A stretch of 64,000 bases of DNA from Emiliania huxleyi CCMP1516 (taxonomy: Eukaryota), in NCBI RefSeq assembly GCF_000372725.1, contig NW_005201392.1, positions 4,521 through 68,520 on the forward strand, read 5' to 3'. Positions 44,456-54,653 of the stretch are shown in pieces; positions within the stretch are counted from its first letter, which is position 1; each line of letters opens with the position of its first letter. Under the pieces are notes generated by a model, which was not told where the DNA came from, ran no database searches, and worked only from the letters and a program-made list of their open reading frames with translations. The position numbers and the translations under genes are program-made.

Positions 44456-47400
44456 ATGGGTGGCCTGAAAGGCTCGACGCTTCTGCTCCCGCCGCCTCAC
44501 CTCCCGGCACCTCACGGCGCTCCTCGTCCGCAGGCCAAGCCACCTTTGAGAGCTGGGTCAACTTCACGCCGACATGGGTGGCGCTCATGCATCGTTTCAG
44601 ACACGTCGTCTTCACCTTCTGGGTGATGGTGAGCCTCCTCGGCGTCTATCACGCCGAGACGGTCGTCTCGTCCATCACCTCCGATCTCGCAACCATACCT
44701 GGTCGCTGGCAGCCAGCCTACATGTGCGCCGCTGCCGCTGAAGCCTCCCAGCCGCATCCTCCCGTCGCTCACACGCGTGGCTGTGCCGCCGCGGCCACGC
44801 TTCGGCCACAGGCGCGACTCGCTGCAGGCCGCGGACGCACTCAAGCACAAGTTCCCCTCCCTTGCCGGCGAGAAGGCGCAGAAGAGCCCACGCGCACGAG
44901 ACGCCACCACCCACCAGCACCCTCCTGCCGCACCTTCCGCCGCATGCGCCTCTCACCCACGCGCAAGCAGCGGGGCGGCGGGGTGGCGTCCCGCCCTCGC
45001 CCCCCTCCCCGCGCCACCCCCGCCTCCCCCGCCGGCGCAGGCCATCATCCGCGTGCGGCGGGTTGATAATTCTTGAGCAAAGAGCTCAAAACGAACAGGC
45101 CAATTAACAACGAATAGGCCATCATCCGCGTGCGGCGGGTCGACGGCGAGTTTGTGCTCTCTGATAAGACGTCTGCCCGCTCCTCACTGCCCGCTGTCTC
45201 CTCTCTCTCTCTCTCTCTCTCTCTCTCTCTCTCTCTCTCTCTCTCTCTCTCTCTCTCTCTCTCTCTCTCTCTCTCTCTCTCTCTCTCTCTCTCTCTCTGC
45301 CAGTGTGTGTGTGTGTGTGTGTGTGTGTGTGTGTGTGTGTGTGGAGACGCCTGCCCGACCCTTCTCTCGCCCTGCCTCCCAAGGCACGCGTTTTGCAAGT
45401 CGCTCGACGCGTCGGTGGCATCCTTCCTGCCCGAGGGACTGCTGCTGGACATGTCCACGACACTTCCCTGACATGTCCCGTAGGTGGCATCCTTCCTGCC
45501 CGAGGGGCTGCTGCTTGGTGTCGACTCGATCTACAACTACTGGAAGCCCACTTGGGTGAGGGATGGGGGAGATACGGGGGAGATATGGGGGAGATACGGA
45601 GAGGTGTGGGGGAGATCTACAAGTGCTGGAGAAGCCCACCTATGTAGCAGTCCACGACGCGCACGAACGCGAACACGCACACGCACACGCACACGCACAC
45701 GCACAGACGCACACACACACACACACACACACACACACACACACACACACACACACACACACACACACATACACACACACCGTTGCGCACAGGTGAGCAA
45801 CAAGCCGCCGCAGTTTGTCAAGGAGCTCTTCCTGACCGAGGGCGACTCGGCCATGCTCGTCGTCATCTACCTAAACTACTCCTACCCGGAGCACCTCGAC
45901 CATGTCGTCACCGGAGGGGTGTTTTTTCCCCCCCACTTTTTCCCCCAACTTTTCCCCCCCACTTTTTTCCCCCACTTTTCCTTTCCACTTTTCTTTTCCA
46001 CCCCACTTTTCCCCCCACTTTTCCCCCCACTTTTATTCCACTTTTCTTCCCCCCCACTTTTCCCCAATCCTTCCTCCACTTTTCCCCCATCCCTCCTGCC
46101 ATAGCGCACATCACCAGGCACTGCCACCCTCCGGTGCCTAGACCCCCCCCCCCCCCCCACCCCCCCCCCCCACCGCTCTGTGCGCCGCGTCCGCAGGGGG
46201 ACATGGTGACCAACGCGCAGCTCGAGCTGGCGGGCCGGCCGCGCGCGTTTCTTTTCTGCGGCGTGCCTGTCTCTGGAGGCGGGCCTTTCTGTCCTTCTAG
46301 GCCGGATGCGACGCACCCGTGTCGCGCGCGTCTGCTGTGAGAGAGAGGTGAGGCCGCCCGATTTCTTTTCTAGGCCGGCCCCGTGGCCTACTCGGTCTTC
46401 TTGGGGGGCGACCTCACGATGCGCCAAGACATGCTCATCGCCGTGCAGAGCGACGCCGCGTTTGTCCACACACTGACGCTGCCGATCGCGACGGCGCCGC
46501 CCGCGCGCACTCCACGACTCCGAGAAAAAGAAATCATGCGCGGCCCAGCGGCGAGAGTGTCTTCTTCTTAGGCGCTGCTTGCGCTCTACTTCCGCTCGCT
46601 GCGCATCATGCTCATCCCCCTCCTCACCATCACCCTCTCCCTCTCGGCAAGCCTGCAAAAGACGCATCAACCACGAATCAACCACTCATTAGCACTCCTC
46701 ATTACGAGCTGGGCGAGCCCGCTCCTCACGCACGGCGCCTCATCAACCACTAATCAACACGCTGGTTAGCCCTCTTCGTTGCTAGGCGAGCCTCCTCATC
46801 ACGTACGGCGCGTCGCGCCTGCTGCCGCTCCACTATTTGGTGCCCGTCCTCCTACTCTGCGTCACGCTCGCCACGTCGGTCGACTATTGCCTCTTCTTCC
46901 TCGCGCGACTCAAGGACGAGATGCAGAAGCCGGACCCTCTGTTACCCTACCCCCACCGTACCCGAACCCAGTACCCTACCCCCACAGGACGAGATGCAGA
47001 AGCCGGACGGGCCTGACAAGCCGACCTACCACCAGGACCACACCTCCCCCTTACCTGCCCCGCCCCTCCCCCACACCTCCTCCGAGACTTCCCCCATACC
47101 TGCCCCGCCCCTCCCCGAACCCTCCCCCGCCTCTTTCCCCTCCTCCCCCCCCAAGATCTCCCCCTTACTCCCCACCTTTTCCCCAATCTATCCCCCCACT
47201 TCATCCCCCTTTTTCCCACAACATTTCTCCAAATCTCCTTCACCACTTCCCCCCTNNNNNNNNNNNNNNNNNNNNNNNNNNNNNNNNNNNNNNNNNNNNN
47301 NNNNNNNNNNNNNNNNNNNNNNNNNNNNNNNNNNNNNNNNNNNNNNNNNNNNNNNNNNNNNNNNNNNNNNNNNNNNNNNNNNNNNNNNNNNNNNNNNNNN

Positions 47401-51906: not shown

Positions 51907-54653
51907 CTACTCAAACATGTCCGCGAGCAGCTCCTTGTTCTTCATGACTGCCCAGTCGGTGAGGCCGGCGAGCAGGTTCGTCTGCTCGTTGGTCAGTGAT
52001 GTGAGACCTCCCTTGAGGCCGCAGCACTCGCCGCCGGCGCCACACGAGACGATCGGGTTGGGCAGGAACGAGCCAAAGTGCGGGAAGCCGGCGAAGGGGC
52101 CGTCGTCGCCCTTGGCCAGCTGGTCGCGCGTGTCCTGCGGCAGCTGCGCCTCCCACTCTTTCGAGCTCGAGAGGTAAAAGAGGCAGAGGTCGAGACGCTT
52201 GTCCGGCGCGACGCCCATGTAGTCGTTGCCCACCTGGGGAGATATGGGGAGATATGGGGAGAGATGGGGAGAGATGGGGAGATGCGGGGAGATGCGGGAG
52301 ATGCGGGGAGAGACGTAATCGCTGCCCACCGTGGTCAGCGTCATGCGCACGACGGCGGTCTTGCCATCCGCCATGCTGTCCTGCATCGCGCGCACAAAGG
52401 GGCCAAAGTCGCTCTCACGGAAGACTCGCAGCGTGGCCGGGTCGCGCTCGGGCCAGCCCCACCTACAGGACGGTTCTAGGAGAGGTCTAGGAAAGGTCTA
52501 GGAGGGGTCTAGGAAAGGTCGCGCTCGGGCCAGCCCCACCGGTCCGCGCCGACGGAGAGCCCAAAGAGCGGCGGGAGGAAGCTCGAGATGGATTCGCGGA
52601 GCTTCTCCTCCGACGTCTCGCTGTACGGGTCCTGGGGAGATATGGGGAGATATGGGGAGAGAGACGGGGAGAGACGGGAAGAGACGGGGAGAGACGGGGA
52701 GAGGCGGGGAGAGGCGGGGAGAGGCGGGGAGAGGTGGACCTGTGCTAGGCCTCGAGATACGGGGAGATACGGGGAGATGTGGGGGGAGATATGGATCTGC
52801 GCATCTGGGCTCGCTACCCACTTGTCGCGCGGCGCGAGCGGCTGGGACGTGTTGAGGAAGCAGACCTCATGGTCGACGCTCCGCACCAGCACGTTGTACT
52901 GCGCGAGGATGTCGCCCTCGAGGTCGCCGTCCCCCTGCCGGTAGCGGCTGGACGGCGGCGGCTGCGGCTGCTCCGCCATCTTTGGCCAGTCGGGGAGGAG
53001 CGGCCCAACCAGGGGCACGTCGAGCAGCTTGGTGAGCCCGTCGACGATTGTCGATGTGCCAGTCGTGACCACCGCGTACTTGCGCAAGCAGCAGAAGAGG
53101 CCGCCGCCGAACTGGCAGCGGTCGTCGTTGCGCGTCGACGGGTCGGTGCTCGCGGTCAGCCAGTAGAGGTCGCGCTCGCCCCAGACCGAGGATGCGCCCG
53201 CCGCCTGCCCAGGGTTCGGGTACCGTGGGGGTAGGGGAGGGTGGCTTCGGGTACCGTGGGGTAGGGGAGGGACGCGCCAGCCGCCTGCTTCAGGCTCCAG
53301 CGCAACTCCGGAGGCGGAAGGCCTTCGACGACTGCGCTCGCGCCGGGCACGGCATCCGAGAGGGACGATCCCGCCGCGGCGCCTCCGTATGCAAACGGCT
53401 CGATCATTCCGCCCTTGGTGACCTGTAGGGAGAGATGGGGAGATATGGGGAGACATGGGGAGATACGGGGAGATCATCCCGCCCTTGGTGACCGTCGCGG
53501 TGGAGCCATCGGCGTAGGTGACGTCGACGTCCTGCAGGAGCGGGTAGCCGACGTACAGCGGCGTGCTCTCCATGTTTGTGAAGGCGTTCTTCGTCGACGA
53601 GAGCAGCGGCGCGCCTGCGGAGGATCGCTCCGAGAAGGTTCACGGAAAGGTCCAGCAGCCGTTCTCCGCCGACGAGAGCACAAGACGCGCCCGAGCCAGC
53701 AAGCAAGGAGCCGTCCTTAGGCGGGCCGAGGGAGGAGGTGGAGAGGATGAGGAACGGCGCGCCCTCGCGTGGGAGGAGGAAGTCGGAGGCCTTGAGGTGC
53801 CGGTTCCGCGCCAGCGCCTCCTCGCGAGACTGCTCGTTCCACGTGAAGAATTGGTCGCCCCCGAGCCCGTACGGCTGCAGCACCGCGTCACCCAGCGACT
53901 GGCTCCAGACCTGCCCGGGGTTCGGGTACCGTGGGGTAGGGGAGGGTGGGTTCGGGTACCGTGGAGTAGGGTAGGGTGGGTTCGAGTACCGTGGGGTGAG
54001 GGAGGGTGGGTCCGGACCTGCCCAGGGTCGCCTGTCCAGCAGCCGAGGCAGCCCGCGCGCGCGGCGCGCGGCAGCAGCCCGAAGAACATGTCGCGCGTCG
54101 CGCCGTACCCCAGCGACTCCTTTGGCAGCTCCGCGAGCTGAGCCATCGTCAGCTCCTCGGGCGGCGGGCTCGCGCCGTAAAAGACGCTGTCGGGCGTGTC
54201 GTTTTGGTTGTAGACGGTCACCGCCGTCAGCCACGAGCCGCCCGAGACGCCGGCCAGGTACCGCGTCCTCTTCAAGTGGTGCAGGTTGTGAAGCGCCCGC
54301 ATCTGGCCGTAGCCGGCCGCGTATGAGCGGCACCCGCCGCCGCTGACGCACACCCCGATGTTGGCGGTAACCGTCGTGTCTTGGAACCCGGGGAGCTGCT
54401 GCTCGGGCCAGGGGTAGTCCACCACGCCGACGGTGTTGAAGCCGTTGTAGCGCTCTCCCGCCCAGAGCTTCGCCGTGGTGCTCGGCGGCTCGCAGCACCG
54501 CAGTCGAGGCTGCGGCGTGCCGTGGGTCGTCGCGGCAGCCGGCGCCGTGGAGCGAGCGGCCGCCGGCTGAACCAGCGGCTGCTGCTGCCGGTGCTGCTGC
54601 CTCCGCATCTTGACGTAGCCACTCGACGGAGGTGGACAGCTGGGCGTCGCCAT
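51907..54653 (-). CDS. cPLA2/phospholipase B (patatin-like) lysophospholipase, multi-exon
   Basis: GVCVSGGGCRS oxyanion motif, YLAGVSGGSW nucleophile elbow, later GDGDLE candidate catalytic Asp. Confidence 0.82.

What the first reader, a model, noticed from the sequence alone, without database searches (positions are those of the whole stretch)
46915..54017. Filler family E: CCCTACCCC(C)ACGGTACCCGAACCC in MMPL and phospholipase introns
A ~25-30 nt unit occurs in one to three copies in introns 46915-46987 and 48338-48413 (plus gene) and 53205-53284 and 53911-54017 (minus gene). Each has an exon duplication and is sense to its own gene. The unit starts with the telomere-like CCCTAC.
Basis: seen in the sequence. 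Interest (0 to 1): 0.7.

Follow-up and report, generated by a model that had tools for sequence, protein, structure and literature searches.

The report
Self-copying repeat introns in Emiliania
In the bloom-forming alga Emiliania huxleyi, four short introns are built from a 30-base repeat sandwiched between two copies of the neighbouring coding sequence; they likely arose when DNA repair copied the repeat from other, often nearby, introns into exons, which would help explain this alga's unusual GC and GA splice sites.

Summary
Confirmed and extended. The window is Emiliania (Gephyrocapsa) huxleyi. All four stretches are introns: RNA contigs skip three exactly, and the fourth (GA-AG) is fixed by RNA piece ends and a database protein. 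Each is target copy + 1.5-3 units of a C-rich ~30-nt repeat + target copy. The unit recurs in 97 metagenome stretches: 48 of 79 arrays have a flanking duplication (7.6% in controls), 10-50 nt long and 6% diverged; the C-rich strand is sense in 61 of 71 (codon model) and 15 of 15 Pfam hits. There are no terminal inverted repeats, no fixed duplication length and no parent element, but filler ends are in register, arrays cluster, and neighbours share private variants. Best reading (0.5): intron birth by staggered-break repair that copies an existing array, often a nearby one; the donor site is recruited from duplicated coding sequence. 10 of 14 RNA-supported introns in these two genes carry such duplicates. 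The telomere link is weak: CCCTAA lies near 1 of 112 arrays. No intron-less allele was seen in four DNA runs, so gain is inferred.

The parts
46915..46987 (+). Intron E1, 73 nt, GA-AG; starts with an exact 21-nt copy (46915-46935) of the next exon's start (46988-47008), AG shared; filler about 46936-46985, about 1.5 variant units
   Evidence: RNA pieces end at 46912; P0027 reads across; anatomy
48338..48413 (+). Intron E2, 76 nt, GC-AG; 23-nt copy of downstream exon (21 match), 2 units (first degenerate), 7-nt copy of upstream exon end
   Evidence: Joint 48330-48407 in RNA X15 and X11, absent in DNA X5 and X10
53205..53284 (-). Intron E3, 80 nt, GC-AG; 15-nt downstream copy (13 match), 2 units (53212-53271), 3' end nearly identical to the 3' end of E4
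   Evidence: RNA X13 and X14 skip 80 nt
53911..54017 (-). Intron E4, 107 nt, GT-AG; 11-nt downstream copy (9 match), 3 units (about 53918-54009), 11-nt upstream copy (10 match)
   Evidence: RNA X14 record 4 skips 107 nt; DNA X9 record 19 spans it
44414..51492 (+). Host gene 1: MMPL-family transporter in about 20 exon pieces; named relatives outside haptophytes are bacterial; the 5' end is approximate
   Evidence: Pfam PF03176; tblastn of P0027; homologues
51907..54653 (-). Host gene 2: PLA2c / lysophospholipase-domain protein, 684 aa, 8 exons, 7 introns
   Evidence: UniRef100_A0A6V2YLT1, Emiliania huxleyi, 684 aa
48855..48925 (+). Neighbouring intron (other filler, CCGAGATT type) that holds an inverted copy of the downstream exon start; evidence for template switching
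   Evidence: RNA joint 48853-48925; sequence read directly
52463..52539 (-). Neighbouring intron with an exact 23-nt downstream-exon copy and a different (CCTAGA-type) filler; same build as family E
   Evidence: RNA joint 52439-52517

Best explanation
These are four spliced introns of Emiliania huxleyi, each a short array of a 30-nt repeat between two copies of the neighbouring coding sequence, and they likely arose inside exons when repair of a staggered DNA break copied an existing array, often a nearby one, into the gap. Shown: splicing, duplications of 10-50 nt, dispersal, sense bias, in-register filler ends, clustering. Inferred step 1: offset cuts or a stalled fork expose an end that copies a whole short array from a donor intron, sometimes with a few flanking bases. 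Inferred step 2: fill-in duplicates the target. Inferred step 3: an insertion survives in an exon if the left copy offers G|G[C/T/A] as donor and the right copy, or the filler's last A plus the target's G, offers AG; splicing then removes exactly one copy plus the filler and restores the frame. Inferred step 4: selection keeps the C-rich strand as sense (pyrimidine-rich intron, no G-quadruplex in the pre-mRNA) and total lengths above about 60 nt. Inferred step 5: arrays then gain or lose whole units locally, and each new intron becomes a new donor. Because the donor dinucleotide is taken from GC-rich coding sequence, GC and GA donors would follow directly.
For: Splicing. Duplications in 48 of 79 arrays against 7.6% of 2000 shuffled pairs; length 10-50 nt, all three frames, introns 61-142 nt, predicted donors GC 20, GT 8, GA 3, GG 3 of 34. 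Of 14 RNA-supported introns, all have G on both sides of the junction, 12 repeat their first two bases at the next exon, and 10 exceed the 95th percentile of 210 shuffled pairs. Local donors: 10 of 73 loci of 1 kb or more hold a second array (13 extra in 132 kb) while the other 57 kb of the window hold none; neighbours' last units are closer than chance (p 0.024); four variants are private to neighbour pairs, among them an inverted pair in L046 and the E3/E4 3' end. Units within an array are closer than between arrays (3.2 against 4.9 edits, p 0.001). Both orientations occur: L046 carries a G-rich array with its own duplicate inside a GTGAGT intron. An inverted exon copy lies in intron 48855-48925. 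The MMPL gene has bacterial relatives and about 20 exon pieces, so its introns are probably gains.
Against: No intron-less allele: four DNA runs (two per gene) keep the introns, and no relative's genomic sequence was compared, so gain at these sites is inferred. Filler ends are strongly in register (21 of 33 right ends in 4 of 30 phases, 25 of 33 left ends in 8; 0 of 200 simulations), whatever the distance to the acceptor (6-53 nt); this fits a template with fixed ends at least as well as DNA copying. The private variants were picked by eye; blind tests are marginal (p 0.024, 0.04, 0.11), and some pairs (L012, L064, L071, perhaps ankyrin-repeat L019) may be plain segmental duplications. Junction microhomology was measured without a control. 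No enzyme is identified.
Confidence: 0.5

Rival explanations
1. A reverse transcriptase (non-LTR, Penelope-like or telomerase-like) copies a short RNA with fixed ends, either a dedicated ~30-nt template used repeatedly or an excised E intron, at staggered nicks; the long variable duplication is its target-site duplication and the sense bias is built into the reaction.
For: In-register ends independent of acceptor distance; variable 10-50 nt duplications, as in target-primed insertion (own knowledge); E3 ends like the complete 3' end of E4, as expected from copying an excised intron; same-gene clustering; non-LTR introners exist (PMC12130899, passages); telomerase inserts repeats at breaks in vertebrates (PMC7215372, passages).
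Against: No shared element body or tail in 210 flanks; no reverse transcriptase among 132 flanking segments (these were chosen next to arrays, not searched for RT); 67 different units among 98 with locus-specific variants, unlike one template; CCCTAA near 1 of 112 arrays; inverted neighbours in L046.
Confidence: 0.25
2. The introns are old; only their ends and interiors have been rewritten, by slippage or by repair on spliced cDNA that pasted junction copies and repeats into existing introns.
For: No empty allele in four DNA runs; in 8 of 34 predicted cases the upstream exon does not end in AG; filler with a duplicate also lands inside an existing intron (L046); whole-intron tandem duplications differ between the window and DNA runs.
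Against: The copies sit exactly at the splice sites and supply the donor in 12 of 14 RNA-supported introns; 61-nt introns consist of nothing but duplicate and filler; a gene with bacterial relatives holds about 20 exon pieces.
Confidence: 0.15
3. Family E is an ordinary DNA-transposon introner (MITE-like).
For: Sequence-similar introns in unrelated genes; splice sites recruited from the duplicated target; five introner families are listed for this species (PMC9860276 supplement).
Against: Duplications of 10-50 nt instead of a fixed 3-9 bp; no terminal inverted repeats and no special fold; similarity does not reach the intron ends; internal tandem structure with variable unit number.
Confidence: 0.07
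4. Assembly artefact of a repeat-rich draft.
For: The window has N gaps, and two whole-intron tandem duplications are single in other DNA runs.
Against: DNA contigs of four runs carry the four introns and RNA contigs skip them; the same build occurs in metagenome contigs.
Confidence: 0.02

Closest known systems
New introns of Daphnia pulex from repair of staggered double-strand breaks (PMC4202315, passages)
   Same: Insertion in an exon with a direct repeat of the adjacent exon's end at the far end of the intron; splice sites arise at the junctions.
   Different: Daphnia repeats are 4-12 bp (33 cases) and the gains are polymorphic; here duplicates are 10-50 nt, the insert is one recurring repeat family with in-register ends and strand bias, and no empty allele was seen.
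Introner elements (PMC9860276, passages and supplement; dinoflagellate ILEs, bioRxiv 10.1101/2020.10.14.339549, passages)
   Same: A family of look-alike introns in unrelated genes; GC, GT or GA donors recruited from the duplicated target; AG from target, insert or their junction; bias to one orientation.
   Different: No fixed 3-9 bp duplication, no terminal inverted repeats, tandem interior, local clustering. The survey lists five E. huxleyi families (653 copies) with duplications and inverted repeats scored '?' (four) or absent (one); their sequences were not seen, so E may be one of them.
Interstitial telomeric sequences inserted at breaks (PMC7215372, passages)
   Same: Short tandem arrays with a G-rich and a C-rich strand inserted at breaks, at times with target duplication or inverted duplication.
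   Different: The unit is not TTAGGG; direct duplication alone is rare there (3 of 66) and none of the human cases lies in an exon; here the insert forms the intron.
GC-AG-rich splicing of E. huxleyi (PMC4028052, passages)
   Same: Same species; donors GC 56-65%, GT 35-40%, GA up to 4%; acceptor AG.
   Different: That paper ascribes GC donors to genome GC content; the passages read do not mention junction duplications or repeat fillers.

Membership tests
Spliceosomal intron | Removed precisely from RNA, present in DNA, ends G[T/C/A]..AG | tested here: met
   the joint row for E1 was not displayed, its cut is fixed by piece ends and protein P0027
Introner (DNA-transposon type) | Look-alike introns in unrelated genes | tested here: met
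   97 stretches; flanks hit SAM, PQ-loop, septin, AAA_12, ankyrin, IF-2, BRO1 and other families
Introner (DNA-transposon type) | Fixed short target-site duplication (3-9 bp) | tested here: not met
   10-50 nt, variable, in 34 models (models needed a score of 10, so short duplications were not counted)
Introner (DNA-transposon type) | Terminal inverted repeats | tested here: not met
   Ends are ACCCTCCCC and GAACCC in 33 introns read; folding z-scores -1.72 to +0.86
Introner (any type) | Recent gain: absent at the same site in relatives or other alleles | tested here: inconclusive
   Kept in four DNA runs; no outgroup genome available
Introner (any type) | Identity with one of the five published E. 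huxleyi families | not testable with these tools
   Supplement gives only counts, lengths and GC
Staggered-break repair neointron (Daphnia type) | [quoted passage not shown] | tested here: met
   4 of 4 in the window; 48 of 79 arrays
Staggered-break repair neointron (Daphnia type) | Empty ancestral allele known | tested here: inconclusive
   None seen in four DNA runs
Interstitial telomeric sequence | Array of the species' telomere repeat (TTAGGG/CCCTAA) | tested here: not met
   0 of 4 window introns; 1 of 112 arrays within 40 nt; telomere repeat
Non-LTR retroelement tail / SINE | Shared body next to the repeat in some copies; poly(A) or fixed 3' tail | tested here: not met
   210 flanks of 150 nt share only other short repeats or the same locus; a rare full-length parent is not excluded without the genome
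Telomerase RNA or other known RNA family | Match to an Rfam model | tested here: not met
   0 matches up to E 1 in 46000-55000; a template gene elsewhere in the genome was not testable

The most novel reading that the evidence does not exclude
E. huxleyi builds most of its introns without transposons: short repeat arrays, or the excised intron RNAs that carry them, are copied whole into exons of the same or neighbouring genes with a long target duplication that supplies the splice sites, so that introns beget introns locally. This one process would account for the majority GC donors, the repeat-filled introns and part of the repeat content of this genome.
Probability: 0.3. Interest if true: 0.87.

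Novelty: new variant of a known kind. Interest (0 to 1): 0.68.

Why it matters
How introns arise is a long-standing question, and known mass routes rely on transposons. Here a repeat family with no transposon marks forms exact, spliced introns through long duplications, and 10 of 14 RNA-supported introns in two genes carry such duplicates. If general, this gives a mechanism for the published oddity that most E. huxleyi donors are GC, and a directly testable system: chromosome-level genomes and many strains exist, each intron records its own target sequence, and private variants would trace parent-daughter relations. The flanking direct repeats would also allow exact intron loss.

Tried and rejected
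No whole genome was held, so the genome-wide search was replaced by a metagenome scan; the 97 stretches are an exact-match sample, not a census. No match in viral contigs or prokaryotic genomes. Polarity from splice signals alone is a weak test: with YAG acceptors 30 sense against 6 antisense of 78, but with any AG 34 against 15 of 71, and control dinucleotides CC and GC scored 31 and 30; I rely on the codon model (54 of 58 correct in leave-one-out; 61 of 71 before and after masking repeats) and Pfam instead. A fixed branch-point distance was rejected (6-53 nt). No RNA structure signal, no Rfam match. L083/L085 looked like a shared element body but are one locus differing by a deletion beside the array. 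Junction microhomology: measured, no control, inconclusive. Summed contig depth was not used as copy number. Homologues of the phospholipase were too few to date its introns. Ten paper searches listed no description of junction duplications in E. huxleyi introns; the 2013 genome paper and one on internal duplication and intron creation are not held. I recall, unverified, that the genome paper notes abundant 10-11-bp repeats in introns, and have an uncertain memory of a report of telomeric repeats in introns of Isochrysidales, which one search did not find.
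Full report
Setting. The window is GC-rich eukaryotic DNA with N gaps. 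The minus-strand gene at 51907-54653 yields a 684-aa frame when its exons are joined along an RNA contig; the cluster of its database match holds UniRef100_A0A6V2YLT1, a 684-aa PLA2c-domain protein of Emiliania huxleyi. The plus-strand gene matches Pfam MMPL and an E. huxleyi CCMP1516 protein at 99%. No whole genome was held.

The observation. The titled motif matches exactly twice and never in 100 shuffles; with up to four edits it matches five times, all in the four stated stretches. RNA contigs skip 53205-53284, 53911-54017 and 48338-48413. For 46915-46987 the joint row was among those not shown, but RNA pieces of two studies end at 46912, the leftmost cut of a 73-nt skip, and protein P0027 reads straight across. 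DNA contigs of four runs, two per gene, keep the introns, with a few base changes. Ends are GA-AG, GC-AG, GC-AG and GT-AG. Each intron starts with a copy of the next exon's start (21, 23, 15, 11 nt) and ends with a copy of the previous exon's end (2, 7, 4, 11 nt). Splicing removes one copy plus the filler.

The family elsewhere. An exact 21-22-nt core occurs in 97 metagenome stretches, in no viral contig and in no prokaryotic genome. Of 79 arrays with enough flank (the four of the window and three same-locus pairs included; arrays near contig ends dropped), 48 have a flanking duplicate scoring 10 or more, against 7.6% of 2000 shuffled pairs. In 34 of 71 non-redundant arrays a junction model scores 10 or more: duplicates total 10-50 nt, introns 61-142 nt in all three frames, donors GC 20, GT 8, GA 3, GG 3, upstream exon ending in AG in 26 (predictions, no RNA). 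The copies differ at 45 of 712 positions in 33 introns (29 of those models, five ambiguous ones dropped, plus the four of the window). Where the upstream exon lacks AG, the acceptor is often the filler's last A plus the target's G (L065).

Orientation. A codon model trained on this window's exons (54 of 58 correct in leave-one-out) puts the C-rich strand on the sense side in 61 of 71 arrays, before and after masking repeats. Pfam hits 15 of 68 sense segments (13 loci; two segments of L006 overlap) and 0 of 64 antisense segments. Splice-signal polarity alone is weaker. Exceptions exist: L004 and L068 are reversed by both junction and masked codon model, and L046 holds a G-rich array with its own duplicate inside a GTGAGT intron. 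The G-rich strand of all four introns matches a G-quadruplex motif. Other fillers are less biased (22 of 35, 14 of 20).

The unit. It is about 30 nt; 98 units give 67 variants. Filler ends are in register: 21 of 33 right ends fall in 4 of 30 phases and 25 of 33 left ends in 8, never reached in 200 simulations that mimic the search bias, and regardless of a 6-53-nt distance to the acceptor. So CCCTAC is internal. The species' telomere repeat is TTAGGG (bioRxiv 10.1101/2024.05.26.595999, passages; PMC3622300, passages); CCCTAA lies near 1 of 112 arrays. There are no terminal inverted repeats, no notable fold, no Rfam match and no shared body in 210 flanks.

Signs of local copying. Units within an array are closer than between arrays (3.2 against 4.9 edits, p 0.001). 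Ten of 73 loci of 1 kb or more hold a second array, 13 extra arrays in 132 kb, while 57 kb of this window hold none and 7 kb hold four. Four variants occur only in neighbour pairs: an inverted pair in L046, pairs in L012 and L019, and the 3' end shared by E3 and E4, which sit between unrelated exons. These were picked by eye; blind tests give p 0.024, 0.04 and 0.11, and some pairs may be segmental duplications.

Not only family E. Of 14 RNA-supported introns in the two genes (15 rows, one an alternative register), 10 exceed the 95th percentile and 9 the maximum of 210 shuffled pairs (controls were aligned over 30 nt, real cases over 40); all have G on both sides of the junction and 12 repeat their first two bases in the next exon. 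Fillers differ. Intron 48855-48925 holds an inverted copy of its downstream exon, which points to template switching rather than to a transposase. The MMPL gene has about 20 exon pieces and, beyond three close eukaryote-type hits, its named relatives are bacterial, so its introns are probably gains, though undated.

Mechanism. Best reading (0.5): staggered-break repair copies a whole short array, often a nearby one, fill-in duplicates the target, and selection keeps events that give a donor, an AG, a C-rich sense strand and at least about 60 nt. Splicing, duplication, dispersal, bias, register and clustering are shown; the break, the copying step, the selection and the gain itself are inferred. 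Rivals: reverse transcription of a short RNA or an excised intron (0.25), favoured by the fixed ends; rewriting of old introns (0.15), open because no empty allele was seen; a classical introner (0.07); artefact (0.02).

Comparison. It works like Daphnia break-repair introns (4-12-bp repeats; PMC4202315, passages) and like introners in recruiting splice sites from the duplicated target (PMC9860276, passages; 10.1101/2020.10.14.339549, passages; PMC11282704, passages), but fails the fixed-duplication and inverted-repeat tests. The introner survey lists five E. huxleyi families with these features unresolved or absent (supplement rows); their sequences were not seen, so E may be among them. GC donors of 56-65% in this species were ascribed to GC content (PMC4028052, passages). 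Ten searches listed no account of the duplications; the 2013 genome paper and its supplement could not be read and may bear on this. PMC2784329, PMC13518057 and PMC12130899 were read as passages; none of those passages describes this build. Earlier notes of this scan report single introns of like build in other genomes (unchecked); none on this genome or sequence.

Verdict. Interest 0.68.

Noticed in passing
window 48855-48925: RNA-supported intron holds a reverse-complement copy of about 17 nt of the downstream exon start before a CCGAGATT-type filler.
   Followed up: partly
window 48474-48627 and 49012-49149: Whole small introns with their junction copy are tandemly doubled (67 and 68 nt) in the window but single in DNA runs X5 and X10: strain difference or assembly effect. 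A third, 75 nt, lies at 49261-49424.
   Followed up: partly
   Followed up: no
window 52234-52329, 52632-52817, 53423-53492, 45557-45620: A 10-nt ATCTCCCC-type filler is C-rich on the sense strand in several introns but G-rich in 45557-45620; overall 22 of 35 sense.
   Followed up: partly
window 44414-51492: MMPL transporter whose named non-haptophyte relatives are mostly actinobacterial: a candidate horizontal transfer shared with other coccolithophores; no tree built.
   Followed up: partly
L031:1-165 and L061:1450-1607: A long array of a 29-nt variant carrying TAG|GC in each unit; the two contigs share a 12-nt flank and may be the two sides of one array.
   Followed up: partly
L071:800-1030: Head-to-head E arrays, with a 65-nt unit (target copy plus filler) repeated in tandem.
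   Followed up: partly
L083 and L085: Same locus, differing by a deletion of about 67 nt that removes the left target copy beside the array.
   Followed up: partly
window 11869-12866: Array of 114-nt (38-codon) repeats, 8.8 copies, probably a repeat-protein coding region.
   Followed up: no
window 45916-46196: An intron that appears to start with GG (GAG|GGGTGT); GG donors were also predicted in 3 of 34 loci. Not confirmed.
   Followed up: no
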